Positions 1,170 to 47,481 are shown, counted from the stretch's first letter. The stretch is DNA of 64,000 bases from an uncultured bacterium (GCA_947085505.1 CAMTWI010000004.1:1800-65799); one strand, 5' to 3'. The notes: generated by a model not told the origin, from the sequence alone. Numbers and translations are program-made.

Positions 1170-1682
1170 ATGGAAAAACTCTTAAAAATGGTTCCCCTTG
1201 GAGCGCTCTCCTTCCTCTTTGTTGGGAGCACTGCGGCGGCACAGTCTGAAATAACTGGAACCCTTACAGGGTCTGGAGAAACGACTGACACTACTGATAG
1301 TGGAGACGGCACACTTGGGGGCACTGTGACTGACGACTCTGATGGGACGCTTGGGGGCACGGTTTCTGGAGGGGGCTCAAGCGGCACCCTTGGAGGAACG
1401 GTCTCCGACGGCAGCACCCTCGGCGGTACTGTTTCTGGAGGAAGCTCTGGAGGCGGAGGAGGCAGTAGTGGTGGCGGCGGGGGAGGCTCTTCTAACAACA
1501 ATCAAGGAGAGGTTCTCGGCGCTAGCGACGACAACACGGGCGGTAGTGTGCTCGGCGACTCTACCGGATTCCCGAATACGGGACTTGGTGGAGAGGGTTT
1601 GACGCTCATGTTCGCACTTATTGCAGCAGCAATGATTGCCAGTATCGGCATCTATCTCGCATCGCGTCGCGCAGTACGCTAA
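1170..1682 (+). CDS. Gly/Ser/Thr-rich cell-surface protein with C-terminal sortase sorting signal
   Basis: Signal peptide (LSFLFVGSTAAAQS). Low-complexity TLGGTVS/GGGSS repeats. C-terminus is FPNTG, then a hydrophobic stretch (LTLMFALIAAAMIASIGIYLA), then the basic tail SRRAVR, i.e. an LPXTG-type tripartite signal. Confidence 0.8.
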   Translation: MEKLLKMVPLGALSFLFVGSTAAAQSEITGTLTGSGETTDTTDSGDGTLGGTVTDDSDGTLGGTVSGGGSSGTLGGTVSDGSTLGGTVSGGSSGGGGGSSGGGGGGSSNNNQGEVLGASDDNTGGSVLGDSTGFPNTGLGGEGLTLMFALIAAAMIASIGIYLASRRAVR

Positions 1683-6181: not shown

Positions 6182-7396
6182 GTGCCAATCATGCCAATGT
6201 CTCTCCCAAAGCCGAAAGAGTGTGCTGAGTGTGGAGACGGAGCAATCTTTCACAAGGTTACGTATATAAGTATCGTCGTGGACGAGATAATGGCGCCCTT
6301 CTCCCAACCAAATCCCTTTCTTCGGGGATTTGTACGACTGGTGTATGGCATTGAACGCAAAGTTACACCAAAGATACTGAAGGGTCTTATGCGGCTTAGG
6401 TGGGCAAGGAACGTATCGGAACCGGATAACGATACGCAGTTGCTTGCGCTTATGCTCTGGAACGAAGCAAAGGAACGAGGTATTGAAGTCGCTGAATTTC
6501 GCCTGTTTGGATTGCCGCGCAACATATTCGTTGCTACGTATCCAGACGGGCTTGAGATAGCGTACGAAGGCATCCCCATGCCTGGGAACTCTGATCTTGA
6601 GCGTGTGCCATGGATGGACAACAAGGCGGTTCTCAAACAGAAGTTCCGGAAGCTCGGACTCCCGGTTGCAAAGGGAGGTGCCGTATCAAACCTCAAAGAC
6701 GCGAAGAAGCTCTTCGCGACACTCACACCACCTGTTATTGCAAAACCGTTCTCTGGATCTGCATCCCGCCATACGGTGCTTCACATAACGAACGAGAAGG
6801 AACTCGAACGAGGATTCAACGTTGCGAAGGAAATCGCACCGAAGGTTGTTATAGAAGAAGAGTTAGTTGGCGCCGTATATCGCGCAACGGTTGTGGATGG
6901 GAAGTTTGCTGCGGCACTCCGCAGGGATCAGCCGCATGTTGTGGGCAATGGCGTCAGCACTATAGCCGAGCTCGTTGCAGATGCGAATAAGCACCCGGGA
7001 CGCCAAGGACCCTATTTCCATCACATGAAGCTCGACAATTTTGCAAAGGAAGAACTCGCGTGGCAGGGACTTACATTTGAGAGCATCCTTCCAGAAGGCG
7101 CGCGTGCAACGCTGCATCAGAAGATTAATTGGAGTGTCGGAGGAACAACCTGTGATGTTACGGACGAGACGCACCCGGACAACATCGCGCTCTTTGAGGA
7201 GGTAGCGAGAGTGCTCAACACCAAGATGGTGGGTCTCGACTTCATAATCGGCGACATGAACAAGTCCTGGAAGGAGCAAGAGCGATGCGGCATCCTTGAG
7301 TGCAACAGTATGCCGTTCTTCGATAACCATCATCTGCCGTTTGAAGGGAAGCCAAGGAACGTTGCGAGTCTCATTTGGGACATGAATAGGGGGTAG
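6182..7396 (+). CDS. ATP-grasp ligase related to the cyanophycin-synthetase ATP-grasp domain
   Basis: 404 aa; GTG at 6182, first ATG at 6191. The C-terminal GILECNSMPFFDNHHLPFEGKPRNVASLIWDM resembles the CphA EVNAAPG..H..PSEG.PRNV motif (recalled). Confidence 0.65.
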   Translation: MPIMPMSLPKPKECAECGDGAIFHKVTYISIVVDEIMAPFSQPNPFLRGFVRLVYGIERKVTPKILKGLMRLRWARNVSEPDNDTQLLALMLWNEAKERGIEVAEFRLFGLPRNIFVATYPDGLEIAYEGIPMPGNSDLERVPWMDNKAVLKQKFRKLGLPVAKGGAVSNLKDAKKLFATLTPPVIAKPFSGSASRHTVLHITNEKELERGFNVAKEIAPKVVIEEELVGAVYRATVVDGKFAAALRRDQPHVVGNGVSTIAELVADANKHPGRQGPYFHHMKLDNFAKEELAWQGLTFESILPEGARATLHQKINWSVGGTTCDVTDETHPDNIALFEEVARVLNTKMVGLDFIIGDMNKSWKEQERCGILECNSMPFFDNHHLPFEGKPRNVASLIWDMNRG

Positions 7397-7451
7397 GAAT
7401 TCATTTCCTTTTAACCCCTGCCTCTGTTAAACTTCATATATAGGTCGAATT

Positions 7452-7482
7452 GCCAGCCAATATCTTGGATGGCTTTGTTTTT
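7452..7482 (+). terminator. Intrinsic terminator after the ATP-grasp gene
   Basis: GCCAGCCAA-TATC-TTGGATGGC followed by TTTGTTTTT. Confidence 0.6.
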
Positions 7483-7523
7483 GGGCCTTTTAGGTCCTTA
7501 CAGGGTCGTTCACACAAAACAAC

Positions 7524-7652
7524 ATGACTGATGACACACAGATGGACCCTATGGTCGGTGGCGAGGAGGAGGTAGCTCCTGTCGCACCAGCTGAGGGCAT
7601 GGAGGAGGCACCTGCAGAGGCTGCTCCGGCTGGCGAGGAGGAGGCTGCATAA
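7524..7652 (+). CDS. Possible 42-aa acidic small protein
   Basis: Below the ORF-track cutoff. Sequence MTDDTQMDPMVGGEEEVAPVAPAEGMEEAPAEAAPAGEEEAA; GC-rich; contains the internal DNA repeat GGCGAGGAGGAGG twice; followed by a strong T6 terminator. No clear SD or promoter. Confidence 0.25.
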   Translation: MTDDTQMDPMVGGEEEVAPVAPAEGMEEAPAEAAPAGEEEAA

Positions 7653-7665
7653 GCCCCCTTTAGCT

Positions 7666-7706
7666 AAAGAAAGAACCGCATCTAAGGATGCGGTTCTTTC
7701 TTTTTT
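7666..7706. terminator. Bidirectional intrinsic terminator (small acidic ORF / trxB)
   Basis: GAAAGAACCGCATC-TAAG-GATGCGGTTCTTTC followed by TTTTTT on plus, with an A-tract on the other side. Abuts the trxB stop. Confidence 0.75.
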
Positions 7707-8631
7707 AGGAGTGCTTCATGAGCCACTGATAGATGTCTTCAAGTGCTTTCACGGCGTCTCCGGCCGCGATGTTGTTCTGGTGATAGAGTTCGTCGGTGCA
7801 GTCTCCGGCAGCCCACACACTATCCACGGATGTGTGCTGATTTCGGGGATCTGTTATAACGCGTCCAACCGCATCAAGATCAACGAGGTCTTTCGCATAA
7901 TCCGTGTTCGGTATAACCCCAACCTCAACAAAGACGCCCGTAACCGGAAGCTCGGTAACGACTCCTGTTGTTCGGTCCTTAACGGTGAGTCCCGAAACAA
8001 ACTTGTCGCCAAGCACCTCTACAGGTTCCGCGTTGAGTACCGCTTTCATGTTCGGGTGTGCGAGCACCTTTTCAACCGTTATCGCATCACCCTTAAAGGA
8101 TGCATGGCGATGGATGAGTGTCACAGACTTCGCGTATGCAAGAAGTTGGGCTGCGGTCTCAAGGCCGGCATTCCCGCCCCCCACAACGGCAACGTCTTGT
8201 CCTGAGAACATGGGGCCGTCACACGATGCGCAGTAGGTAACACCCATATTCTCGAACTTCTCAGCGCCCGGTACGAGAAGTTTCTTTCGGCCGGCACCAG
8301 AGGCCAAAAGAACAGAGCGGCTAGTATAGGTCTTGCCGTCGCGTGTAGTAGCCGTAAACCCTCCCTCAGCCTTCGAGAGGCTCTCCACACGATCTCCTTC
8401 CACTATCTCGAGTACATCCTGCTTGTAGGCCTCAAGGTGCTCCTTGAAGGATTTCTTAAGATCATCTCCACTAATATTTACGGTACCAATCCAGTTCTGG
8501 ATTCCTTCTGAGACGGTAGACTGTCCGCCAATCTCTTCTGCGATAAGTACTGTCTTGAGGCGCTTGCGAGCGGCGTACACGCCGGCAGCGACGCCCGCCG
8601 GTCCGCCGCCAATGATGATGAGGTCTTTCAT
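7705..8631 (-). CDS. trxB: Thioredoxin-disulfide reductase
   Basis: 308 aa. IIGGGPAGVAAGVYA FAD fold, redox CASCDG, second GGGNAG dinucleotide fold. Confidence 0.9.
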   Translation of the reverse strand: MKDLIIIGGGPAGVAAGVYAARKRLKTVLIAEEIGGQSTVSEGIQNWIGTVNISGDDLKKSFKEHLEAYKQDVLEIVEGDRVESLSKAEGGFTATTRDGKTYTSRSVLLASGAGRKKLLVPGAEKFENMGVTYCASCDGPMFSGQDVAVVGGGNAGLETAAQLLAYAKSVTLIHRHASFKGDAITVEKVLAHPNMKAVLNAEPVEVLGDKFVSGLTVKDRTTGVVTELPVTGVFVEVGVIPNTDYAKDLVDLDAVGRVITDPRNQHTSVDSVWAAGDCTDELYHQNNIAAGDAVKALEDIYQWLMKHS

Positions 8632-37689: not shown

Positions 37690-37842
37690 ATGTCACAGGA
37701 TCGTCTAATTCTACTGCGCTCTGCTTCCGGGCACGTTCGCCGTACTCGTAAGAACAAGAAGAAGGTTGAGCGTAAGATTGAGCTTAAGAAGTTTGATCCA
37801 AACACTCGCACGCGCGAAATCTACAAGGAGGTTAAGAAATAA
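37690..37842 (+). CDS. rpmG: 50S ribosomal protein L33
   Basis: Start moved to ATG 37690. 50 aa: MSQDRLILLRSASGHVRRTRKNKKKVERKIELKKFDPNTRTREIYKEVKK (non-zinc form). Confidence 0.8.
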   Translation: MSQDRLILLRSASGHVRRTRKNKKKVERKIELKKFDPNTRTREIYKEVKK

Positions 37843-38040: not shown

Positions 38041-38067
38041 GCGGGCCCTGTGGGACGAGATTCGAAA
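38041..38067 (-). repeat. Pseudo-tRNA-3'-end element at the distal edge of the tRNA-Trp island
   Basis: Minus strand: TTTCGAATCTCGTCCCACAGGGCCCGC. T-loop-like TTCGAAT plus AGGGCCCGC, compared with the tRNA-Trp end TTCGATT..AGGCCCGC. 19/27 ungapped identity to the tRNA-Gln-locus repeat GTTCCAACATCGTCCCAGATTGCCAGC. Confidence 0.55.
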
Positions 38068-38090: not shown

Positions 38091-38993
38091 GTGAACACCA
38101 CTCTCATTCTCGAGGAGCTCTACTCAAAGGAGGAGATCGAAACTGCTTTCGATACTAATTTTGGTCCGCGCATAAAGGGTATTACTCAGCGACGTTCTTC
38201 AGATAATGAGCCATATATACTCATATTTGCTTCCGCTCGCGGCTCAATAGTGTACGGGGATAGGGTTGAGGGTAGGATTTTCTATTACAAGGGTGAGGGA
38301 TCAGACGGTGACCAGAAGCTTACAACCGCAAATAAGGCACTGATAAATTCAAATCTAAACAAGACACCCATCTTTGGTTTTCGTCAGCATGAGATTGGTG
38401 GCAAATACCAGTATCTTGGATTGGTATCGGTCCTTGAGTGGACCTATGCAGATTTCAATGGCAGAAAGGTGTATGAATTTAAATTCGAACAGGAGGGCTT
38501 AGAGAATCCTCTGCAAAGTACTAAAGAGTGGAATGAAATAAAGAACCAAAGTGAGCTTCCGGACCCATCCCTCACGGGAACGGGTGAAGTAGCTGTATCT
38601 ACTGTATCTAGCATAAAACGAAATGCAGCCTTTCCATTAAAGATTAAGGAGCAGTATCAGAATCGATGTGCTGTGTGTAGAAAATCACGGTGTACGGCTG
38701 CTGGGTACCCAGAGGTTCAGTCCGCCCATATATACCCAAAGGAGAAGAATGGAGCAGATGACTTAAGAAATGGCATAGCTCTATGCAGGCTTCATCACTG
38801 GGCTTTTGACGAGGGGCTGCTGGCTATTTCTGATGATTTAACTCTACTCGTTAACAATGCCATTACAAAGGATGAAGACTACGAAGAAATTAGCAAGTAC
38901 GCCGGAGTAGCTATCCTGCCTCCTCTGGACAAACGATATACACCGTTGCCACTTTTTCTGACAGAGCATAGAAAGCTACATGGGTTTGAGTAG
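38091..38993 (+). CDS. SRA(YDG)-like domain fused to HNH nuclease; putative modification-dependent (type IV) restriction enzyme
   Basis: 300 aa, GTG start. N-terminal YILIFASARG..FYYKGEGSDGDQKLTTANKALINS parallels the SRA motif Y.L...GGY....F.YTG.GG...DQKLT..N.AL. C-terminal CAVCRK..AHIYPK..NGIALCRLHHWAFD is HNH. Confidence 0.75.
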   Translation: MNTTLILEELYSKEEIETAFDTNFGPRIKGITQRRSSDNEPYILIFASARGSIVYGDRVEGRIFYYKGEGSDGDQKLTTANKALINSNLNKTPIFGFRQHEIGGKYQYLGLVSVLEWTYADFNGRKVYEFKFEQEGLENPLQSTKEWNEIKNQSELPDPSLTGTGEVAVSTVSSIKRNAAFPLKIKEQYQNRCAVCRKSRCTAAGYPEVQSAHIYPKEKNGADDLRNGIALCRLHHWAFDEGLLAISDDLTLLVNNAITKDEDYEEISKYAGVAILPPLDKRYTPLPLFLTEHRKLHGFE

Positions 38994-39083
38994 GTGTTGA
39001 TGAGTGCGAGTGCCCCCTAGGACAAGATTCAGCTTGCTTTAGAAGGGTATTGTGCCCCCAGGTACGAGTAGTATGATTCCTTC

Positions 39084-40088
39084 ATGAAGCTAAACTACGA
39101 AATAACGCCTGAGAATCTCAAGATTCTGGAAATCAAGCAAGTACTGCTGGATAAAGAGAAATTCGGTGCTCTTACGTTTGATCGGGCTTATTTACCTCTG
39201 CATGAGCTCAGGAAGATGTTTGTAGAGTTTCAAGAGCTCGACTACGCTTCTAAACTGGCTCCTGACGAAGTGCAAGAAGTGGAAAACTACAAGAATCAAC
39301 TTCTTGACTATGTTCGCCGAGTTCACTCAATAGATCCTACTACTGATCCTACTTTTAATACGAATGTTCGTGAGAATTTAGAAAATGAAATAATAAGTTT
39401 TTGTCAGCGAGTGAGTAAGGTTTTGAGAAACAACCTTGTCTATCTTAGACAGGAGCTTGCTCTTAGGAATCAGGACCAGCAAAGCTTAGCTGAAGAACAA
39501 AAAGCTACTGTGCAAGCGAGGAAGCAGGCAGAAGAAACGTTAAGTCAACTACAAGCAAAGCTTGAGGAACTAACTAGTAGAGAGCAGCAGCTCGAAAACA
39601 AATCAGGCGAGTTTGGTGCGAAGGCTCTCGGAATTCATTTTGGTACCGAGACAGATAACTATTCGGATGTAGCTAATAAGTGGTTTGTTGCCTCAATCGT
39701 TGCCTATCTTTTTCTTGTTTTCATCGTAATTGGTATAGGAATCTATTACAGTTTTTTCCATGGCGGCGGCTGGGAAACTCTTACGTGGCAGGAGGGAACC
39801 GCAAAGCTCTTTCTCTTTGCGGCTCTATGGTACGGATTAACCTTCATTACACGAAACTACAATGTAAATTCACATCTTGCTGCTGTAAATCGGCATCGTG
39901 CAGCAGTCGCTAAAACTCTCGAAGATTTCCTTGCTTCAAGTCCATCTGCTACTGGTGAAATGTTGAAGAATGGTACAGAAGCCATGTTTCGGCATGTAGC
40001 GATCGGTTTCATAACGAAAGCCGAAAAGGATTCTGGAAACCCTCTTCTTGAAGTCGTGAATAAGGTGGTGAATCCAAAAGGGGAATAA
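39084..40088 (+). CDS. Coiled-coil protein with C-terminal double-TM domain (unknown function)
   Basis: 334 aa. Heptad-rich QQSLAEEQKATVQARKQAEETLSQLQAKLEELTSREQQLE, then WFVASIVAYLFLVFIVIGIGIYY and LFLFAALWYGLTFI helices. Confidence 0.55.
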   Translation: MKLNYEITPENLKILEIKQVLLDKEKFGALTFDRAYLPLHELRKMFVEFQELDYASKLAPDEVQEVENYKNQLLDYVRRVHSIDPTTDPTFNTNVRENLENEIISFCQRVSKVLRNNLVYLRQELALRNQDQQSLAEEQKATVQARKQAEETLSQLQAKLEELTSREQQLENKSGEFGAKALGIHFGTETDNYSDVANKWFVASIVAYLFLVFIVIGIGIYYSFFHGGGWETLTWQEGTAKLFLFAALWYGLTFITRNYNVNSHLAAVNRHRAAVAKTLEDFLASSPSATGEMLKNGTEAMFRHVAIGFITKAEKDSGNPLLEVVNKVVNPKGE

Positions 40089-40203
40089 AATCAAAGGATA
40101 CGGTTGATTTCAAAATGATTCAGACCGTATGGAATGAGATAAAATTAGGTTACGGCTCCACACATCGTTTAAAATTTTAGGTAAACCAACTTTTCAATCA
40201 TCT

Positions 40204-40770
40204 TTAGGACAAAGAGTCTTTGGGGGTTGCAAGTTTTATATAGTCTAGCAATCGGTACTGATCTATAAGTTCAATCGGCTTGTCTTCAGCAAACTTTCTA
40301 GCTTCAAGAGTGAATCCTGCAGTAGTGATGAAATAGGCTTGCCCGTTTGCTAGGCGACCTGCTATAGCCCCGTAGAAATCTCTAATAGCTGACACCGGCA
40401 CCTGTCGAGTGATGTATCTCTTGCACTGAATATAGTTTGTAACACCGTTTTTCGTGGCAATCACATCAATCCCACCGTCGTAAGATTTTCCGACCGCTTC
40501 AGCCTGATACCCAAGTTGTATAAAAAGCTCAGCAATATAATCCTCGAACTCTTTAGGACTCATGCCCCGTATCCACTGGATAAGATCTCTATCAGATCTC
40601 CATTGCGCACCAGCCTTGAACTGCCGCTTGTTCCTCCATGAGCGATAGAGATCAGGTAAAACGACTTCGACCAGTACCCGAAGAACAAGCATTCCGAACA
40701 CGAAGACAATAAGCCATCCGAACACGGGTGAAAGCATTTCCACAATAGGATTGCTCGGAAAGATATCCAT
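40204..40770 (-). CDS. Membrane-anchored Mrr-like restriction endonuclease
   Basis: 188 aa. N-terminal TM (FGWLIVFVFGMLVLRVLV). FEDYIAELFIQLGY..DGGIDVIA...IQCKRY..V..IRDFYGA..FITTAGFT matches the Mrr_cat D-(Q/E)xK core (recalled). Confidence 0.8.
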   Translation of the reverse strand: MDIFPSNPIVEMLSPVFGWLIVFVFGMLVLRVLVEVVLPDLYRSWRNKRQFKAGAQWRSDRDLIQWIRGMSPKEFEDYIAELFIQLGYQAEAVGKSYDGGIDVIATKNGVTNYIQCKRYITRQVPVSAIRDFYGAIAGRLANGQAYFITTAGFTLEARKFAEDKPIELIDQYRLLDYIKLATPKDSLS

Positions 40771-40773
40771 TTC

Positions 40774-40974
40774 TTAAATACTATCACTCGGGCGTGCCTG
40801 CGTTTGAGGCTCTTCGGATAAGGCATCATAGAGCCTGGCCAAAGATCCTAAGAAAAGCTGAGCCTCGCCGGGAGAAACTTCAAGGTCGTAACTATTCTGG
40901 AAATAAGTGATCAGCCTTGTTTCCAAGCTTTTAGAAAACTTAAAATCAGAAGAGACGCTCTCTACAGTCCTCAT
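40774..40974 (-). CDS. Small hypothetical protein, paralog of 42340..42537
   Basis: Start moved to ATG 40974 (66 aa). LETRLITYFQNSYDLEVSPGEAQLFLGSLARLYDAL aligns with ELTNRTIAYYLGRGESISPETAQEYLRDMSSLYGSF. Confidence 0.4.
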   Translation of the reverse strand: MRTVESVSSDFKFSKSLETRLITYFQNSYDLEVSPGEAQLFLGSLARLYDALSEEPQTQARPSDSI

Positions 40975-41311
40975 ATACAAAAGTCTTTTGAGCCTCTGAA
41001 CTACACTTTGACCACTTGATATAATCCCCGTCAAAAGTGCCACAAGTACTCTGCGTGTGTGTTCCCATGGCAATACCCATTTCAGTAAGGCAGTCTCCGT
41101 ATGCTTTCATTTTAGTGTCCTGCGCTTTCATGGCTCTAATATTTGCTTCCTTCTGCGCGGCTTGCTGTTCAGGAGTTGGATTCGCACGCTGTACGGCCTG
41201 CTGGTGTACCTGAACGTCTTTCTGAGGCAGATAATAGCCGTAGTAATAACCAACAGAAATACCTCCTATTATCACGGCTAGGAGTGCAATCGGATCGAGG
41301 AAATTCTTCAT
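40946..41311 (-). CDS. Hypothetical membrane-anchored protein
   Basis: 121 aa. N-terminal TM (IALLAVIIGGISVGYYYGYY). Gln/Ala-rich linker and a Cys-containing C-terminus. Confidence 0.45.
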   Translation of the reverse strand: MKNFLDPIALLAVIIGGISVGYYYGYYLPQKDVQVHQQAVQRANPTPEQQAAQKEANIRAMKAQDTKMKAYGDCLTEMGIAMGTHTQSTCGTFDGDYIKWSKCSSEAQKTFVYEDCRERLF

Positions 41312-41340: not shown

Positions 41341-41562
41341 TTATTTGAGGAAATAAGAAATATCTTTCTTGTAGATCTTGGCAAAGCGCTGAAGTTCTAT
41401 GACATCAACACGTTGTTGTCCCGACTCTACATTTGAGATATGCGACTGAGGCCTGTCGAGTTTCTTGGCAACTTCAGTCTGGGTCAGTCCTGCATCAAGG
41501 CGAGCCTTTCTAAGACGCTCGACAAAAACGGCATATTCCTTGGTATGAACTGACTTCTTCAT
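41341..41562 (-). CDS. XRE-family helix-turn-helix regulator
   Basis: 73 aa. RLRKARLDAGLTQTEVAKKLDRPQSHISNVESGQQRVDVIEL is a canonical HTH_3. Confidence 0.85.
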   Translation of the reverse strand: MKKSVHTKEYAVFVERLRKARLDAGLTQTEVAKKLDRPQSHISNVESGQQRVDVIELQRFAKIYKKDISYFLK

Positions 41563-42577: not shown

Positions 42578-43351
42578 ATGGGATACACAAAAATTATTCA
42601 GTCAGGAGATCTAATCGAAAAATATGAGTACGAAAAACCTCCGCCCGAGCGTGTGCCTCGAAAGGTTAAGCCGGGGCGTATCGCTCCGTGGTCCGATCAA
42701 CTTACCGAAGAAAGGAGAGCAGATTGCATACACAAGAGACGAATATCAAGCATTAATCGTTGCCGCCAGTCGTTTTTCCGTCTCGTACGAGCGAATCTAC
42801 ACGCGGGCGCTCCCATCCTGCTCACACTCACAATGCTGGATATCGTGGACCTCAGAACTGCATACGCTTGCTACCACGAATTCGGACAAAGGCTGCGTCG
42901 AATTATCGGAAAGAATACTTCTTGGATTGCTGTGCCGGAGTTTCAGAAAAGGGATGCCGTACATTTCCATGTTCTGATCTGGAATCTACCCCATGAATAC
43001 ATTGAAACCGAACCAGACACCCGTCGAATTCAGAATCTCTGGAGAGCCGGTTATGTTGATCTTGTTCAGACAGACGGTTCGCCTAAGCTTGCTACCTACC
43101 TCGCAAAGTACATGTCCAAAGCGATGCAGGACCCTCGGCTCCTGGGACAAAAAGCGTATAGTGCTAGTCGGAATATATTGCGCCCGGTGTCGTTCAACAC
43201 TCAAACGTCGGTTAACACTGCTTGTGAGGTCTGGGGCATAACTGACGAGACAAAGCCAGAGTATGATCGGGAATTCGACACAAAGTGGATGGGGAAATGT
43301 CGCTATACTTCCTATTCTATCCAAAATATAGATAATGCTAAGGACGCATGA
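42578..43351 (+). CDS. HUH-type rolling-circle replication initiator (Rep)
   Basis: 257 aa. AVHFHVLIWN is the HUH motif and ATYLAKYMSK the Y-x-x-K-Y catalytic Tyr motif, as in small ssDNA phage/plasmid Reps. Confidence 0.7.
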   Translation: MGYTKIIQSGDLIEKYEYEKPPPERVPRKVKPGRIAPWSDQLTEERRADCIHKRRISSINRCRQSFFRLVRANLHAGAPILLTLTMLDIVDLRTAYACYHEFGQRLRRIIGKNTSWIAVPEFQKRDAVHFHVLIWNLPHEYIETEPDTRRIQNLWRAGYVDLVQTDGSPKLATYLAKYMSKAMQDPRLLGQKAYSASRNILRPVSFNTQTSVNTACEVWGITDETKPEYDREFDTKWMGKCRYTSYSIQNIDNAKDA

Positions 43352-44811
43352 AATACATTCTCTACTGTCGAAAATCTACGGATAACGAAGATAAGCAAGT
43401 CCTCTCACTCGATTCCCAGAAGATCGAGCTAGAACGTCTTGCTGAGCGTGAAGGTATAGAGATTGTTGCGACACTTACTGAAAGCCGGTCTGCAAAGGAG
43501 CCGGGTCGTCCCGTCTTCAATGAACTTATGCACCGAATCGCATCCGGTGAGGCCGATGCGGTTCTCTGTTGGAAAATAGATCGCCTTACTCGAAATCCTG
43601 TAGACGGTGGACAAATCCAATGGCTTCTCCAAAAAGGTTTGATCAAATCTATTCGGACCTTTGAACGAAGCTACAGCCCTTCTGACAATGTGCTGCTCAT
43701 GAGTATTGAACAGGCAATGGCTACTCAGTACCTTCGGGATCTGTCTGAGAATGTTAAACGCGGGAATAGAACCAAATTGGAACGAGGAGAGTGGCCAAGC
43801 TACGCACCTTTTGGCTACAAGAATGACAGGGTAAACAAAACTATTCTCGTAGATGAGAATCGCGCTCCTTATATTCGTCGGGCGTTTGAGCTATATGCAA
43901 CAGGTGGGTATGGCCTGAACCAAGTGGTAGAGATTCTTTATAGTGAGGGTTTCAGATCAAAGACTGGAGGCAAGGTTTTTAAGAACCAGATACATCATTT
44001 CCTAAATAGCCGTTTTTATATTGGCCTTATGGAAAGACAGGGAAAACTCTACCAGGGGAAGCATGAACCTCTTGTTTCTCAAGCTACGTTTGATCGAGTT
44101 CAAGAAGTGCTGCACGGAAGACTTCGTCCTTGCATGAAAAAGCATTTCTATTCTGCGCGCGGGTTCCTTAAATGCGAACTCTGCGGATGCATGATCACTG
44201 CTACTACCGCTAAGGGCCGGAAGTATTACTACTGCACAAATGGTAAGGGAAATTGCGGGGCCCACAAGAAATACCTAACTGAGGAAAAAACAGATCTTCT
44301 TGTCTCAAAACTCTTTTCCGAACTGGATATGGATGAGGAATTCATATTGCTCTGCGCGCAAGCCTTTCGAGAGGAGCACGGAAGTACCTCAACATATGAG
44401 GATCTACGTCCTGCAACTATCCAAAAGGAACTGGACGCTCTCGCTCTCAAAGAATCTCGCCTTACCGATTCCATGGCCTCTGGGGTCCTCAAAATGGAGC
44501 TGTACGAAGAGAAAATGCGTGAGATCGAGAATGGACGAACAGAACTCAAATCCCAGCTAAAAAGTATCGAAAATGAGAAGGGGGCCAATGCTACTTTCGA
44601 ACAGGTTCTAGATGTGTTTCTAGAAAGCAGTAGAGCCGCCAAACGATATTTGGAGGTTGATGAACAGGAAAAACGAAAGATGCTCGAAAAACTACTTTCG
44701 AACGCCTCTATCCTTGGAGAAGAAACGGCTTACTTTAAGTTTAAAAGTCCTTATCAGGCACTAGCTCTAGCACCTAAAAACAGGGATTTTCAAATGATGC
44801 GGGCCTACTAG
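43348..44811 (+). CDS. Large serine recombinase
   Basis: 487 aa. N-terminal resolvase catalytic domain (ILYCRKSTDNEDKQVLSLDSQ..CWKIDRLTRN), recombinase domain, Cys zinc-ribbon (CELCGC..YYYCTNGKGNC), C-terminal coiled coil. The 3' end overlaps tRNA-Trp. Confidence 0.9.
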   Translation: MKYILYCRKSTDNEDKQVLSLDSQKIELERLAEREGIEIVATLTESRSAKEPGRPVFNELMHRIASGEADAVLCWKIDRLTRNPVDGGQIQWLLQKGLIKSIRTFERSYSPSDNVLLMSIEQAMATQYLRDLSENVKRGNRTKLERGEWPSYAPFGYKNDRVNKTILVDENRAPYIRRAFELYATGGYGLNQVVEILYSEGFRSKTGGKVFKNQIHHFLNSRFYIGLMERQGKLYQGKHEPLVSQATFDRVQEVLHGRLRPCMKKHFYSARGFLKCELCGCMITATTAKGRKYYYCTNGKGNCGAHKKYLTEEKTDLLVSKLFSELDMDEEFILLCAQAFREEHGSTSTYEDLRPATIQKELDALALKESRLTDSMASGVLKMELYEEKMREIENGRTELKSQLKSIENEKGANATFEQVLDVFLESSRAAKRYLEVDEQEKRKMLEKLLSNASILGEETAYFKFKSPYQALALAPKNRDFQMMRAY

Positions 44812-44870
44812 GAATCGAACCTAGGACGTCGGTTTTGGAGACCGAAGTTATACCATTTAACTATAGACCC
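44800..44870 (-). tRNA. tRNA-Trp (CCA)
   Basis: Minus strand: GGGTCTATAGTTAAATGGTATAACTTCGGTCTCCAAAACCGACGTCCTAGGTTCGATTCCTAGTAGGCCCG. Anticodon loop CTCCAAA. Confidence 0.9.
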
Positions 44871-44948
44871 GGTATTGCCCACGATACCAGATACAGGGGT
44901 AGTGGAAAAGAACCCGTAATTAGAGCGTGCGCGGGATACAATCACTCT

Positions 44949-45983
44949 ATGAAAAGGCTCCTAGCCCCGCTCCTCCTTTTGTTCGTGCTCTTCATACCGT
45001 TTGCTGTGAGTGCACAATCGAATCTCCCACTCTTTGATCCGGACTGGCAGCTCGTGCCGGATGCACACAAGATTGATCCAGAGAACTGTCCTGAAGGGTA
45101 TCCTCTTGGATTTGCAGGAGTGTTGCAGCTCATACAAAACGGCATGAACGCGGCGATATCATTCGGCGTTATTATTTTTGTTTTGATTATCGCGGGCGCT
45201 GGTATCCTCTGGATTCTTACCCCAACGAATCCCGAGAATCATTCACAAGCAAAGAAGATTCTCACGAATGCGGTTATTGGTCTCCTGATTATTCTTTCAG
45301 CGTGGCTTATCGTTGATTTCGTTATGAAGCTTCTCTACAACCCTAACGCTCGTAATTTCGGTCCCTGGAATCAAATTCTTACCGGAGGAGACCTCTGCAT
45401 TAAGCCGATGGAGAATCTTCAACCTCTGTTTAGTGGGAATATTTTCTCAGTTCCAGGACGAGGAACTGGTGCCGATAGTGGAGGACCCGCAAGTCTCGGT
45501 AGTGGGTCTTGTTCTCCAACACTCATAAGCAATGCAGCATACATGGGAGGATACCCTCTTACGCAAGCTCAGGCGAATACGTTTTCCTGTCTGGCACAAG
45601 CAGAAAGCTCTTGCGGCACCAATATTTCAGGAGCCAAGACAGTTGATGGAAGACCAACAACTGCACACGGCATGTTCCAGATCGTCATGGGGTATAACGA
45701 CAAGTGTCATAATTTGAATGTTACGGTGTGTTCTTCAGCTGCAAGGAATGCTGGCTGGCGAGGATCAGGGGATTTAAATTGCTCGCAGGCATTTTCAGGA
45801 GGTAGAGTTAAGCAGGGTCAGGAAGAGCTTGCGCGAGTCTGTAGAGCAGCAGCAGCGAATATTGTTTGTAATGTCTCAGCTGCCGCATGCCTTCTTAAGG
45901 AGCGGCCTGATTTCGGCGACTGGACATCGGACCCCCGAAGTACGAGACAGAAAGCATGCATTGCTACCTTTTCTGGCCAATAA
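44949..45983 (+). CDS. Pilin-like (TrbC/VirB2-like) module fused to a lytic-transglycosylase-like domain
   Basis: Start moved to ATG 44949 (signal peptide MKRLLAPLLLLFVLFIPFAVSAQS). Two TM helices with ..ILTNAVIGLLIILSAWLIVDFVMKLLYN. C-terminal CLAQAESSCG...AHGMFQI resembles the SLT E-S...G(L/M)(M/F)Q(I/V) motifs. Confidence 0.6.
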   Translation: MKRLLAPLLLLFVLFIPFAVSAQSNLPLFDPDWQLVPDAHKIDPENCPEGYPLGFAGVLQLIQNGMNAAISFGVIIFVLIIAGAGILWILTPTNPENHSQAKKILTNAVIGLLIILSAWLIVDFVMKLLYNPNARNFGPWNQILTGGDLCIKPMENLQPLFSGNIFSVPGRGTGADSGGPASLGSGSCSPTLISNAAYMGGYPLTQAQANTFSCLAQAESSCGTNISGAKTVDGRPTTAHGMFQIVMGYNDKCHNLNVTVCSSAARNAGWRGSGDLNCSQAFSGGRVKQGQEELARVCRAAAANIVCNVSAAACLLKERPDFGDWTSDPRSTRQKACIATFSGQ

Positions 45984-45986
45984 TAT

Positions 45987-46562
45987 ATGAATATGAACTG
46001 GAAAATAATTCTTGCCTCTATTTTTCTCATACTCGGTCTTGCAACCATACTTATTACTGCATTCTTAATGCTAGATACTTCACCAAGGCAGTCTATCGAA
46101 GAGTCCCCTCAGGTTCTGTTTCCAACGAGCGGGGTGTTCGAGGCTACGGATTCTACAGGGAGACTTACACTAACGGGTGAAAGTGGTGAACCCATAACTG
46201 TAAAAGATTTTATTCGTAACGGTGAGACCGTTACTGACACTGTGAATCCTGGATCTTTCGTACTTGCTGGAAGTGTTGGTTATTGCTTGGAGGACGGATC
46301 ATGTCCTGAGGGTGCAAACACCGATAATTTCTCCATTACCTACAATAACGAGATTCAATCGTTCAATATTGTTCTACTTGCAGAGCCTCTTAGAAGATCC
46401 AGGGAGGCATCTGAGCGCTTTCTCATTGAAAGGCTCGGTCTTTCACAAGAGGATCTATGCAGACTGAACTACAATCTAGGAGTTCCTTATTTCGTAAATG
46501 AGCAATTCGCTGGTCAGAACCTACGGTTTAGTTTCTGCAAGGATGCTATCGTTCTACCATAG
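45987..46562 (+). CDS. Hypothetical membrane-anchored protein
   Basis: 191 aa. N-terminal TM (ILASIFLILGLATILITAFLML). Lies between the two pilin-hydrolase fusions. Confidence 0.5.
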   Translation: MNMNWKIILASIFLILGLATILITAFLMLDTSPRQSIEESPQVLFPTSGVFEATDSTGRLTLTGESGEPITVKDFIRNGETVTDTVNPGSFVLAGSVGYCLEDGSCPEGANTDNFSITYNNEIQSFNIVLLAEPLRRSREASERFLIERLGLSQEDLCRLNYNLGVPYFVNEQFAGQNLRFSFCKDAIVLP

Positions 46563-46566
46563 GTAT

Positions 46567-47481
46567 ATGAAAAGAATATTTTTACTCGTTCTAGGATTCT
46601 CCCTACTTCTACCCCTTTCTGTAGAAGCGCAGTTCGGTCCCATAGTGCCTGAAGTGTGCCGCACGTGCGCGTGTGGATTTGGTGGAGTGCTTGCTATTGT
46701 GCAAAATGTCGTCAATTTCATGATCGGTATAGCGATTATTTTCGCCACTATCATCATGGTATGGGCAGGAGGTCTCTACATACTTTCTGCAGCTAATCCT
46801 GAAAGCCGTAGTACGGCAAACAAAATGCTCATCAATGCGGTTATAGGTCTTCTGATTGTTCTGTCTGCGTGGCTAATTGTCGACTTTGTTATGAAGACGC
46901 TTTATAACAACGGCAGCGAATTCGGTCCATGGAACTCCATCCTGCTTGGTGGTTCAGGAGACAGCTGTGTAGTGGCGAAGCCAACGACACCACTTTTTAG
47001 TGGAAATATCCTTGCTGTGCCTGGAATGGGAACGGGGAGTGAAAACACAGGAGCGAGCGGTACTGTGGAGCTTGCTGGGGGCTGTACGGGTACGGGTACA
47101 AATTCAACGTGCTCTCGTTTGCCAAGTAATGTTGTATGTGAGGCGAGAGGCTGTTATGCAGATGCAGGGTTGGCAGCAGCGCTGGGTAATATCCGCAGCA
47201 GTGTAGGATGGGCTGTTACAGAAGGGTACCCAAAATCTCGATCCCATCGTGCAGCATGTCACTCAAATGGAACATGTGTTGATGTAGGTCTTCGTCCTAG
47301 AAATTACACCATAGAAAATATTATTGCATTTGACACTGCAGCTAAGGCAGCTGGTTTACGACCCGTTTACGAGGAGAAAGAGGACAGAGATTTCGTCGAA
47401 CAACTCAAGAGAAGAGGGGTGAATGCAATTTTCTTAGGCGATCACATTAGTGCTGATCACTTCTCTGTCTACGCTAATTAA
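46567..47481 (+). CDS. Pilin-like module fused to a putative zinc D,D-peptidase (M15/hedgehog-fold-like) domain
   Basis: Start moved to ATG 46567. N-terminal ~130 aa are paralogous to 44949.. (MLINAVIGLLIVLSAWLIVDFVMKTLYN, GPWNSILLGG, PLFSGNI). C-terminal SRSHRAACHSNGTCVDVG ... ADHFSV resembles H-x-x-G-x-x-x-D ... H zinc ligands. Confidence 0.55.
   Translation: MKRIFLLVLGFSLLLPLSVEAQFGPIVPEVCRTCACGFGGVLAIVQNVVNFMIGIAIIFATIIMVWAGGLYILSAANPESRSTANKMLINAVIGLLIVLSAWLIVDFVMKTLYNNGSEFGPWNSILLGGSGDSCVVAKPTTPLFSGNILAVPGMGTGSENTGASGTVELAGGCTGTGTNSTCSRLPSNVVCEARGCYADAGLAAALGNIRSSVGWAVTEGYPKSRSHRAACHSNGTCVDVGLRPRNYTIENIIAFDTAAKAAGLRPVYEEKEDRDFVEQLKRRGVNAIFLGDHISADHFSVYAN

What the first reader, a model, noticed from the sequence alone, without database searches (positions are those of the whole stretch)
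38091..40770. Cargo cluster: SRA-HNH nuclease, coiled-coil double-TM protein and membrane-anchored Mrr-like nuclease (candidate defence module)
**The three adjacent cargo genes:**
- A protein whose N-terminus parallels the 5mC-flipping SRA/YDG motif (FYYKGEGSDGDQKLTTANKALINS vs YTGSGG..DQKLTNTNRALALN) fused to an HNH nuclease. This is a type IV, modification-dependent restriction architecture.
- A 334-aa protein with a long coiled coil and two C-terminal TM helices.
- An Mrr_cat-type nuclease, on the opposite strand, with an N-terminal TM helix, which is unusual for Mrr enzymes.

Two nucleases plus a membrane coiled-coil protein on a mobile element resembles a composite anti-phage or anti-plasmid module. 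The middle gene could be a sensor or effector rather than a bystander.

The spacer between the first two genes contains a direct repeat, GTGCCCCC(T)AGGWACRAG (39010-39021 and 39052-39062).
Basis: partly seen in the sequence, partly recalled or inferred. Interest (0 to 1): 0.55.

Follow-up and report, generated by a model that had tools for sequence, protein, structure and literature searches.

The report
Three unlinked defence-type cargo genes
Three neighbouring genes on a small mobile element are not one defence machine: two are ordinary nucleases, and the middle membrane protein belongs to a large unstudied family that is often built into restriction-enzyme operons, which makes it a candidate new immunity gene.

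Summary
The three ORFs exist as described, on a low-GC integrative element (~38.0-44.9 kb, possibly to 47.5 kb) with Rep and large serine recombinase genes.

- **A (38091-38993)** is a TagI/ScoMcrA-type SRA-HNH type IV endonuclease, confirmed by profile and fold. It is an ordinary member of a large family.
- **C (40204-40770, minus strand)** is a membrane-anchored Mrr_cat nuclease. In its family (752 homologues, Patescibacteria and Nanoarchaeota) the N-terminal TM helix is the norm (118 of 120), not unusual.
- **B (39084-40088)** has no curated family. It belongs to a superfamily of ~335-aa proteins (1,623 cluster representatives at E<=1e-10) that is distantly DUF6161-like.

The trio is not a conserved module. 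None of 39 other B-bearing loci has A or C, and a sister element with B at 86% identity carries other genes in C's slot.

B itself keeps restriction company. Of 28 independent loci, 8 have it directly after hsdM inside type I R-M operons, 1 has it inside BREX, and 7 have it beside other R-M, methylase or type IV genes. B is therefore probably a restriction-associated membrane accessory or effector. Its mechanism is inferred, not shown.

The spacer repeat is real and belongs to a three-copy motif whose two long copies bracket gene A.

The parts
38041..38066 (.). Motif copy 0 (GCGGGCCCTGTGGGACGAGATTCGAA), immediately upstream of gene A. Read on the minus strand it resembles a tRNA 3' end.
   Evidence: 25 of 26 nt identical to the first bases of sister contig L042, where it directly precedes the B leader. 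The pattern matches exactly only here and at 39012.
38091..38993 (+). Gene A: TagI/ScoMcrA-like SRA-HNH type IV (modified-cytosine-dependent) restriction endonuclease, 300 aa.
39008..39033 (.). Motif copy 1 (GAGTGCCCCCTAGGACAAGATTCAGC) in the A-B spacer.
39052..39068 (.). Short copy 2 (GTGCCCCCAGGTACGAG), 16 nt upstream of the B start codon.
   Evidence: This position is diverged in L042.
39084..40088 (+). Gene B, 334 aa. Order of parts: N-terminal helical domain, coiled coil, TM1, variable outside loop, TM2, invariant juxtamembrane segment, tail. Uncharacterised DUF6161-like superfamily associated with R-M and BREX loci.
   Evidence: Context.
40204..40770 (-). Gene C, 188 aa: N-terminal TM anchor plus a cytoplasmic Mrr_cat PD-(D/E)xK nuclease core. 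No Mrr_N domain.
40813..40974 (-). Small backbone ORF (~54 aa), conserved in sister element L042 at 63% identity.
40946..41311 (-). 121-aa protein with an N-terminal TM or signal segment. Backbone gene, conserved in L042 at 79% identity.
41341..41562 (-). XRE-type HTH regulator of the element (73 aa).
42578..43351 (+). Replication initiator (REP_ORF2-G2P type).
43348..44811 (+). Large serine recombinase (Resolvase + Recombinase + Zn ribbon).
   Evidence: Related recombinases lie near B homologues in L006, L017 and L031.
44799..44870 (-). tRNA-Trp whose 3' end overlaps the recombinase stop codon. Possible integration target or element boundary.

Best explanation
The region is a small defence islet of independently acquired cargo genes. 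It sits on an integrative element with Rep and large serine recombinase genes, in a bacterium that is probably a patescibacterium (CPR). It is not a three-component system.

**Gene A** is a stand-alone TagI-like type IV restriction enzyme. Its N-terminal SRA domain should flip out a modified cytosine, and its C-terminal HNH domain should cut the DNA. This step is inferred from the family.

**Gene C** is a stand-alone PD-(D/E)xK nuclease. One N-terminal helix holds it at the cytoplasmic face of the membrane. It belongs to a family that is extremely common in CPR bacteria and DPANN archaea.

**Gene B** is the interesting part.
- It belongs to a large, uncurated, DUF6161-like superfamily of ~335-aa proteins.
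- The predicted topology is a cytoplasmic N-terminal helical domain and coiled coil, a hairpin of two TM helices with a variable outside loop, and a nearly invariant juxtamembrane helix (NYNVNSHLAAVNRHRAAVA.TLEDF).
- Across lineages the gene is inserted directly after hsdM in type I R-M operons, often with a 4-nt start/stop overlap. It also occurs inside BREX and beside type II, type III-like and type IV genes.

I infer that B is an accessory of restriction-type immunity. Most likely it is a coiled-coil oligomer that acts on the membrane as a second-line (abortive or guardian-type) effector when restriction is challenged. The variable N-terminal part would be the sensor or partner-binding part, and the conserved TM2/juxtamembrane core would be the effector.

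The defence association is shown by context. The membrane-effector mechanism is inference.
For: **A**
- HNH_2 plus SRA.
- 200+ homologues of ~300 aa carrying SRA_ScoMcrA/SAD_SRA plus HNH_2.
- Profile hit to TagI, 1.8e-16, across both domains, plus the SUVH5/6 SRA domains.
- Foldseek: TagI 1.5e-13, ScoMcrA, SUVH5 SRA TM ~0.7.

**C**
- Mrr_cat, 8.7e-29.
- 752 homologues. 118 of the top 120 have the N-terminal TM helix, and the flanking charges (-2 before the helix, +5 after) put the nuclease domain inside the cell.

**Independence of the three genes**
- tblastn of A and C against all B loci gives no hits outside copies of the same element.
- Sister element L042 keeps B (86%) and the backbone genes (63-79%) but has two unrelated genes in C's slot.
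- Gene A is bracketed by a ~26-nt repeat. L042's leader joins the two halves as if A were absent.

**B superfamily**
- 70 close homologues.
- 3,037 representatives at E<=1e-3 and 1,623 at E<=1e-10.
- Close and distant tiers are homologous over the full length: hhalign probability 100%, E=7.5e-54.
- No curated family reaches threshold in Pfam, NCBIfam or PADLOC.
- Collinear sub-threshold DUF6161 matches over ~165-190 residues.

**B context (28 independent loci)**
- hsdM-B-...-hsdS-hsdR in L003, L005/L033, L017, L022, L025, L026, L035 and L041.
- brxB-brxC-B-AAA_15-pglX in L040.
- Dcm+EcoRII.
- HSDR_N_2-N6_Mtase fusion 5 nt upstream, and a Mod+Res pair downstream.
- N6_N4 methylases.
- Abi_C.
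- Fic.
- Vibrio plasmid array with Hhe, HEPN-associated, GIY-YIG and AbiH genes.

**B conservation pattern**
- The post-TM2 segment has 0.50 bits entropy, against 2.3-2.5 bits for TM1 and the loop. Loop length ranges from 10 to 54 aa.

**Literature**
- Embedding in type I R-M, BREX and DISARM predicts defence function, and most embedded genes remain unassigned (bioRxiv 10.1101/2024.01.29.577857).
- DUF6161 was flagged computationally as a candidate defence family (bioRxiv 10.1101/2025.01.08.631966).
Against: - No experiment of any kind supports a function for B.
- 8 of the 28 B loci have no recognisable defence neighbour. Two follow ATP-synthase or glycosyltransferase genes.
- In this window B is not embedded in an operon. 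It has its own 90-nt leader.
- The context sample is small, comes mostly from MAG and metagenome contigs, and was retrieved with two peptide patterns from the conserved core. No formal background rate was computed.
- The AF2 model of B is only moderate (pLDDT 71.7, pTM 0.40). It is weakest exactly in the conserved C-terminal part.
- Foldseek finds nothing for B.
- TM2 falls below a standard hydropathy threshold.
- Matches to SLATT, AbiZ and TM-CARF are sporadic and sub-threshold.
- The absence of gene A from L042 is inferred, because that contig starts 2 nt before the motif.
Confidence: 0.6

Rival explanations
1. One reading: A, B and C together form one composite anti-phage or anti-plasmid system. 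B is the sensor or effector that couples the two nucleases at the membrane.
For: - The three genes are adjacent on one mobile element.
- B and C are both membrane proteins.
- B-family genes are partners of restriction systems elsewhere.
Against: - No co-occurrence of A or C with B in 39 other B loci.
- C is replaced by unrelated genes in the 86%-identical sister element.
- A is a repeat-bracketed cassette.
- C is convergently transcribed. A and B are separated by a 90-nt leader and are not translationally coupled.
- A and C each belong to large families that occur alone.
Confidence: 0.06
2. B is a scaffold or tether, not a toxic effector. It is a membrane-anchored coiled-coil protein that recruits methylase or restriction complexes to the inner face of the membrane, where foreign DNA enters. 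Alternatively it regulates their activity (restriction alleviation or control).
For: - B always sits immediately after hsdM, often with overlapping stop and start codons. This implies co-expression with the R-M subunits.
- B partners with mechanistically different DNA-targeting systems: type I, II, III-like, IV and BREX.
- It has a long coiled coil and cytoplasmic domains on both sides of the TM hairpin.
Against: - B also occurs with no R-M neighbour (L004, L010, L023, L024, L036, L042), and next to Abi_C and Fic, which are not DNA-restriction enzymes.
- The most conserved part is the TM2/juxtamembrane core rather than a surface likely to bind varied partners.
- No interaction data exist.
Confidence: 0.17
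3. B has nothing to do with immunity. It is a membrane protein of mobile elements or a general envelope or stress protein. Its R-M neighbours reflect the fact that both kinds of gene accumulate in the same variable genomic hot spots.
For: - 8 of 28 loci have no defence neighbour.
- Several copies lie on serine-recombinase elements: the window, L006, L017, L031 and L042.
- There are no hits to any validated defence family.
Against: - Hot-spot co-location does not explain repeated insertion at one precise position inside operons, between hsdM and hsdS in 8 loci and between brxC and pglX in 1. Nor does it explain the start/stop overlaps.
- No relatives were found in the phage genome collection or in viral contigs.
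Confidence: 0.17

Closest known systems
TagI (PDB 6GHS) and the SRA-HNH part of ScoMcrA: type IV modification-dependent endonucleases
   Same: Gene A has the same two-domain order and size (~300 aa). The family profile aligns to TagI across SRA and HNH (1.8e-16). Foldseek gives 1.5e-13 over 320 columns. The HNH_2 Cys/His/Asn residues are invariant in the family.
   Different: Only ~22% identity to TagI. A lacks ScoMcrA's head and sulfur-binding domains: NCBIfam PT-DNA_restrict matches only the C-terminal part, at 73 bits against a cut-off of 180. Substrate specificity is unknown.
Mrr (E. coli type IV restriction enzyme) and Mrr_cat-containing defence proteins
   Same: Gene C has an intact Mrr_cat PD-(D/E)xK core (8.7e-29). 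It has domain-level hits to PADLOC mREase_IV and PDC-S02 models.
   Different: There is no Mrr_N winged-helix DNA-binding domain. A single TM anchor takes its place. C belongs to a separate small-protein family (175-240 aa, often with a topoisomerase-type zinc ribbon) that is abundant in Patescibacteria and Nanoarchaeota.
Pfam DUF6161 (PF19658), an uncharacterised family flagged by a protein language model as a candidate defence family
   Same: Distant members of B's superfamily align collinearly to nearly the whole DUF6161 profile (positions 27-57 to 214-215 of 216). The alignment covers TM1, the loop, TM2 and the conserved core.
   Different: All scores are below the gathering threshold (18.8-23.8 bits against 27). 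B itself and its close family give no hit. No function is known for DUF6161 either.
PrrC / RloC and PARIS: guardian genes embedded in or beside type I R-M and BREX loci
   Same: The same genomic logic applies: one extra gene nested inside an hsd operon or BREX locus. PrrC is described as almost exclusively embedded in type I R-M.
   Different: B has no ABC-ATPase, anticodon-nuclease or Toprim domain. It is a membrane protein, and no trigger is known.
ShdA of the Shield system (Pseudomonas): a TM helix plus long coiled coil, often found inside type I R-M loci
   Same: A TM segment plus a long coiled coil, and location within type I R-M loci (text of PMC10542128).
   Different: ShdA carries an RmuC-like nuclease domain. 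B has none, has two TM helices in mid-protein, and has a different conserved core. There is no PADLOC hit to Shield models.
SLATT-domain 2TM effectors of nucleotide-signalling conflict systems
   Same: A two-TM helical hairpin followed by a conserved helix. Sporadic near-threshold SLATT_1 hit (25 bits against 26.3) and a SLATT_4 hit in distant members.
   Different: Only 3 of 67 members hit, and only over TM1. No SMODS, SLOG or other cyclase partner appears in any neighbourhood.

Membership tests
SRA-HNH type IV restriction endonuclease (TagI-like), gene A | N-terminal SRA (SAD/YDG) base-flipping fold | tested here: met
   - Pfam SAD_SRA at 28.2 bits is just under the 30.7 cut-off.
- The family profile hits the TagI, ScoMcrA and SUVH5/6 SRA domains.
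- The AF2 model superposes on SUVH5 SRA at TM 0.69-0.71, rmsd 3.2-3.5 A.
SRA-HNH type IV restriction endonuclease (TagI-like), gene A | C-terminal HNH (beta-beta-alpha-Me) nuclease with conserved Cys/His/Asn | tested here: met
   HNH_2, E=4.9e-11. C193, C196, H213, N227, C232, H235 and H236 are invariant in 38 homologues.
SRA-HNH type IV restriction endonuclease (TagI-like), gene A | Cleavage depends on 5mC/5hmC (or another modification) in the substrate | not testable with these tools
   This needs a biochemical assay.
Mrr-type type IV restriction enzyme, gene C | Mrr_cat PD-(D/E)xK catalytic core | tested here: met
   PF04471, E=8.7e-29, residues 67-177. The D...QCK motif is visible in the sequence.
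Mrr-type type IV restriction enzyme, gene C | N-terminal Mrr_N winged-helix domain that reads modified DNA | tested here: not met
   No Mrr_N hit. Residues 1-60 are a TM helix plus a basic linker.
Three-gene composite defence system (A+B+C) | The components co-occur across genomes | tested here: not met
   None of 39 other B-bearing loci contains A or C. The sister element lacks C. A's plasmid homologues lack B and C.
DUF6161 (PF19658), gene B | Score at or above the Pfam gathering threshold (27 bits) | tested here: not met
   B and its close family give no hit at E<=0.01, and only 2 of 30 members hit at a permissive threshold. Distant members score 18.8-23.8 bits but align collinearly over the whole profile. 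This points to likely remote homology, not membership.
SLATT 2TM effector, gene B | SLATT profile match and association with SMODS/SLOG-type signalling enzymes | tested here: not met
   No hit for B. 3 of 67 distant members hit SLATT_1 below threshold. No cyclase or SLOG neighbours appear in any locus.
PrrC-like R-M guardian, gene B | Gene nested inside a type I R-M operon | tested here: inconclusive
   Met for homologues in 8 loci. Not met in this window, where B lies between two type IV-type genes.
PrrC-like R-M guardian, gene B | ABC-ATPase N-domain plus anticodon-nuclease C-domain | tested here: not met
   No such domains in Pfam, NCBIfam or PADLOC scans.
Shield ShdA, gene B | RmuC-like nuclease domain fused to a TM helix and coiled coil | tested here: not met
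   No RmuC or Shield hit. The TM plus coiled coil are present.
PADLOC phage-defence candidates (PDC) from guilt-by-embedding | Match to a PDC model | tested here: not met
   B has none. Distant members give only single hits at E~1e-3. C matches PDC-S02 only through the shared Mrr_cat domain.

The most novel reading that the evidence does not exclude
The B superfamily is distantly DUF6161-like, has over 1,600 clusters at 50% identity, and spans Patescibacteria, Bacteroidota and Vibrio. It would be an undescribed, widespread class of restriction guardian: a coiled-coil membrane protein co-translated with HsdM (or nested in BREX) that senses failure or inhibition of the restriction complex and then permeabilises or depolarises the membrane through its invariant TM2/juxtamembrane core. 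It would be a membrane-acting counterpart of PrrC and PARIS.
Probability: 0.25. Interest if true: 0.7.

Novelty: new variant of a known kind. Interest (0 to 1): 0.42.

Why it matters
- **Low-novelty parts.** A and C add nothing new beyond two more members of known nuclease families, and the proposed three-gene system does not exist as a unit.
- **What is useful.** The analysis singles out the middle gene's family as a large, unnamed protein superfamily whose position inside type I R-M and BREX operons is conserved across distant bacteria.
- **Why that position matters.** Genes in such positions have repeatedly turned out to be immunity genes (PrrC, PARIS, Hma-embedded systems).
- **If B is one.** It would be a membrane-acting accessory of restriction systems. 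It would also be one of the few defence candidates whose close family comes almost entirely from CPR bacteria, whose immune repertoires are poorly known.
- **Test material.** The family gives a concrete, cheap test set: natural operons with B present.

Tried and rejected
**Gene B: family and fold searches**
- Direct family assignment in Pfam, NCBIfam and PADLOC gave only coiled-coil noise (CENPU, SMC, LmuB, JetC).
- A PDB sequence search found nothing.
- Foldseek on the AF2 model gave all E>1.
- Scans of 30 close and 67 distant members gave no family above threshold.
- SLATT, 8xMP, DUF2207_C and AbiZ were considered and rejected as too sporadic and confined to the TM region.

**Gene B: phage carriage**
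- Nothing in IMG/VR for the close family.
- The distant alignment was too diverse for that tool.
- Nothing in INPHARED with two queries.

**Partner genes for B**
- The 278-aa proteins next to B in L033 and L034 are not homologous by BLAST.
- The genes downstream of B in L042 have no relatives in other loci.

**Spacer repeat**
- The second GTGCCCCC pair at 1317/1353 lies in an unrelated repetitive coding-like region.
- RNA folding of the spacer is no better than shuffles (z = -0.68).
- Promoter and terminator scans are at background.
- A permissive Rfam scan found nothing relevant.
- The idea that the motif is a displaced copy of the neighbouring tRNA-Trp 3' end was tested and not supported (14 of 25 matches).

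**Element boundaries**
- They were not resolved, because no empty-site sequence was available.
Full report
**1. What is in the sequence**

ORF listing confirms the three genes:
- A: 38091-38993 (+), 300 aa.
- B: 39084-40088 (+), 334 aa.
- C: 40204-40770 (-), 188 aa.

They open a low-GC segment (0.43-0.48 against about 0.53 in the flanks) running from ~38.0 to ~47.5 kb. This segment also encodes:
- a 121-aa membrane protein;
- an XRE-type HTH regulator;
- a Rep protein (REP_ORF2-G2P type);
- a large serine recombinase (43348-44811);
- a tRNA-Trp (44799-44870, minus strand) that overlaps the recombinase stop codon;
- three T4SS-pilin-type genes.

ClpB and an L33-like gene lie to the left, and MiaA lies to the right. 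The same element occurs on two Logan contigs (L027, L028). Best hits of B and C are from Patescibacteria, so the host is probably a CPR bacterium. That is an inference.

**2. Gene A is a TagI-like SRA-HNH enzyme**

- Pfam gives HNH_2 (4.9e-11) and SAD_SRA just below threshold (28.2 against 30.7 bits).
- The single sequence reaches TagI in the PDB only through the HNH half.
- The family is large: more than 200 homologues of ~300 aa from bacteria, haloarchaea and Nanoarchaeota. Most carry precomputed SRA_ScoMcrA/SAD_SRA plus HNH_2.
- A 38-sequence profile hits TagI at 1.8e-16 across both domains.
- The AF2 model is confident (pLDDT 88, pTM 0.80).
- Foldseek returns TagI (1.5e-13, 320 columns), ScoMcrA, and SUVH5 SRA at TM 0.69-0.71 normalised to the target.

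A is therefore a new member of a known kind. The mechanism (SRA flips out a modified cytosine, HNH cuts) follows from established knowledge of TagI and ScoMcrA and was not tested here.

**3. Gene C is a membrane-anchored Mrr_cat nuclease of a very common CPR/DPANN family**

- Mrr_cat scores 8.7e-29 over residues 67-177.
- There is one strong hydrophobic helix at 20-38. The flanks carry charge -2 before it and +5 after it, so the nuclease domain is predicted to be cytoplasmic.
- The homology search returns 752 proteins. The top 120 are 52-99% identical and 175-282 aa long. Many carry an added topoisomerase-type zinc ribbon (PF01396). Named sources include Paceibacterota, other Patescibacteria and Nanoarchaeota.
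- 118 of those 120 have the N-terminal hydrophobic helix.

So the anchor is the rule in this family. C lacks the Mrr_N reader domain, so it fails one defining feature of Mrr proper. PADLOC hits (mREase_IV, PDC-S02, ZorD) are domain-level only.

**4. The three genes are not a conserved unit**

I fetched 26 loci encoding B relatives from genome and metagenome collections, and more through exact-protein look-ups.
- tblastn with A and C finds nothing in any of them except copies of the same element, even at E<=10.
- The sharpest test is L042, with B at 86% identity. It keeps the backbone (homologues of the 54-aa ORF and the 121-aa protein, 63-79%). Two unrelated genes (136 aa and 197 aa, no Pfam hit on record) occupy the slot where C sits in the window.
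- A's haloarchaeal plasmid homologues stand among hypothetical genes, with no B or C.

**5. The repeat**

- A longer ~26-nt motif occurs at 38041-38066, just upstream of A, and at 39008-39033, just downstream of A. The pattern matches exactly only at these two places in 64 kb. Among all fetched loci it occurs only in this element and in L042.
- L042's first 26 nt match the upstream-of-A copy at 25 of 26 positions. They match the spacer copy at only 18 of 26. The rest of L042's leader then continues as the window's A-B spacer.

The simplest reading is that gene A is a repeat-bracketed cassette that the sister element lacks. The L042 contig starts 2 nt before the motif, so this is inferred and not shown.

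On the minus strand the motif looks like a tRNA 3' end (TTCGAAT loop, stems, then ...GGCCCGC). It is not a copy of the adjacent tRNA-Trp (14 of 25). Folding, promoter/terminator and Rfam scans gave nothing.

**6. Gene B is the part worth attention**

*Architecture.*
- AF2 with 30 homologues gives pLDDT 71.7.
- It predicts an N-terminal helical domain (1-82, high confidence), one very long helix (93-225) that ends as TM1, a second long helix (235-285) containing TM2, and a poorly modelled tail.
- Hydropathy supports TM1 strongly (202-220). TM2 is weaker.
- The loop between the helices varies from 10 to 54 residues, and TM1 and the loop are the most variable part of the protein (2.3-2.5 bits entropy).
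- The stretch right after TM2 (258-285, NYNVNSHLAAVNRHRAAVA.TLEDF) is almost invariant (0.50 bits).

*Family size and naming.*
- 70 close relatives, nearly all of the named ones Patescibacteria.
- An exhaustive profile search finds 3,037 cluster representatives at E<=1e-3 and 1,623 at E<=1e-10. Those listed are mostly full-length matches of ~335 aa.
- Close and distant tiers are homologous end to end (hhalign probability 100%, E=7.5e-54, 324 columns).
- Named members include Bacteroidota and Vibrio. Every source name seen is 'hypothetical protein', apart from one JGI label 'GGDEF domain-containing protein'.

*Curated families.*
- None reaches threshold in Pfam (2025), NCBIfam (2026) or PADLOC (2023), for B or for 97 relatives.
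- The only coherent signal is DUF6161. It gives sub-threshold but collinear alignments over almost the whole 216-position profile in three of ten distant members, covering TM1 to the tail.
- DUF6161 is itself uncharacterised. [quoted passage not shown] It is not among the six Actinomycetota systems that paper validated.

**7. Genomic company of B**

I counted 28 independent loci with at least one readable neighbour.

| Context | Loci | Count |
|---|---|---|
| Inside type I R-M operons, always immediately after hsdM and before hsdS/hsdR | L003, L005/L033, L017, L022, L025, L026, L035, distant L041 | 8 |
| Inside a BREX locus, between brxC and pglX | L040 | 1 |
| Beside other restriction or modification genes | see list below | 7 |
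| Beside other conflict-type genes | Abi_C (L032); Fic (L009, L037); Vibrio plasmid array with Hhe, HEPN-associated, GIY-YIG and AbiH (L043) | 4 |
| No recognisable defence neighbour | L004, L006, L007, L010, L023, L024, L036, L042 | 8 |

- In the type I operons, B's start overlaps the hsdM stop by 4 nt in L003, L033 and L035. The gap is 4-5 nt in L017, L022 and L041.
- The seven 'other restriction or modification' loci are:
  - Dcm+EcoRII (L029);
  - an HSDR_N_2-N6_Mtase fusion 5 nt upstream (L008);
  - a Mod+Res pair immediately downstream (L011);
  - N6_N4 methylases (L014, L015, and L031 at ~1.3 kb);
  - this window (SRA-HNH and Mrr_cat).
- Two of the loci with no defence neighbour follow ATP-synthase genes.
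- No relatives were found in phage collections.

Repeated insertion at one precise intra-operon position, in operons whose HsdM proteins are only 36-50% identical, is hard to explain by hot-spot co-location alone. It is the criterion used by the 'guilt-by-embedding' study. That study reports that most genes embedded in type I R-M, BREX and DISARM loci remain unassigned, and it placed 145 candidates in PADLOC (10.1101/2024.01.29.577857). B matches none of them.

**8. How it most likely works**

*Shown:*
- domain identities of A and C;
- independence of the three genes;
- the size and full-length conservation of B's superfamily;
- B's association with restriction-type systems.

*Inferred:*
- B is cytoplasmic at both ends. 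This rests on the absence of a signal peptide, the basic residues after TM2 and the variable loop being outside.
- It oligomerises through its coiled coil.
- It acts at the membrane through the invariant TM2/juxtamembrane core as a second-line effector or guardian. This is analogous in logic to PrrC or PARIS (the R-M guardians reviewed in PMC12707154). It resembles Shield's ShdA in shape (text of PMC10542128) but has no nuclease domain.

*Rivals:*
- B is a tether or regulator of R-M complexes. Tight coupling to hsdM favours this.
- B is a non-immune membrane protein of variable regions.

**9. Verdict**

The finding as framed, a composite SRA-HNH / coiled-coil / Mrr module, is not supported as a unit. 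Two of its three parts are ordinary. Its suspicion about the middle gene was well placed. B belongs to a large, unnamed, DUF6161-like superfamily whose embedding in type I R-M and BREX operons makes it a credible but untested defence candidate. Such candidates are numerous in current surveys, so interest is moderate.

**Limitations**
- The context sample is small and rich in MAGs.
- No background statistics were computed.
- The structural model of B is moderate.
- There is no experimental evidence.

Noticed in passing
window 38041-38066 and 39008-39033 (also L042:3-28): Gene A is bracketed by imperfect copies (17 of 26 nt) of one motif. On the minus strand the motif resembles a tRNA 3' end (TTCGAATCTCGTCCCACAGGGCC). 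In sister contig L042 the upstream copy is fused directly to the B leader. This suggests that A is an inserted or deletable cassette, or that these are att-site remnants.
   Followed up: partly
window 44799-44870 (-) and 43348-44811 (+): A tRNA-Trp gene overlaps the last 13 nt of the serine recombinase ORF. It may mark the integration site or the right boundary of the element. The low-GC segment continues to ~47.5 kb through the pilin genes, so the true boundary is unclear.
   Followed up: partly
window 40204-40770 (-) and homologues P0340-P0459: The TM-anchored Mrr_cat family is unusually well conserved (52-69% identity across more than 100 clusters) and abundant in Patescibacteria and Nanoarchaeota. 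Members often carry a C-terminal topoisomerase-type zinc ribbon. That level of conservation might suit a core function at the membrane, such as processing DNA as it is taken up, better than a fast-evolving defence gene.
   Followed up: partly
window 44835-45983, 45987-46562, 46498-47481: Two paralogous T4SS_pilin-type genes share a 93-nt stretch at 78% identity (45249-45341 and 46816-46908), and a 191-aa gene lies between them. One pilin protein has a C-terminal cysteine-rich domain. They lie in the low-GC segment next to the element.
   Followed up: no
window 1317-1360 (-): A second closely spaced GTGCCCCC pair (36 nt apart) lies in a repetitive, coding-like region with recurring GTGCC(C/G)CC...AAG(C/T)GT units. 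It is unrelated to the island motif.
   Followed up: partly
L033:3625-3915 and 7088-7924; L034:7412-8523: Small DUF4325 proteins and 278-aa proteins with no Pfam hit on record recur near B homologues in two unrelated loci. One of these loci is inside a type I R-M operon. The two 278-aa proteins are not detectably homologous to each other by BLAST.
   Followed up: partly
L040:7021-8649: In the BREX-embedded locus, an AAA_15 ATPase (542 aa) immediately follows the B homologue, between brxC and pglX. It could be a two-gene insert, since AAA_15 ATPases are components of PARIS/Septu-type systems.
   Followed up: no
L043 (Vibrio tubiashii plasmid pFP31, 184363-203298): A same-strand array of short genes with ~120-200-nt spacers carries Hhe, a HEPN-associated protein, a 5'-nucleotidase, the B-superfamily member, GIY-YIG and AbiH genes. 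It looks like an integron-type cassette array of defence genes.
   Followed up: no
window 37691-37842 (+): A short ORF after clpB encodes a protein that resembles ribosomal protein L33 (...KKVERKIELKKFDPNTRTREIYKEVKK). Two hairpin terminators follow it, and the island starts right after them.
   Followed up: no
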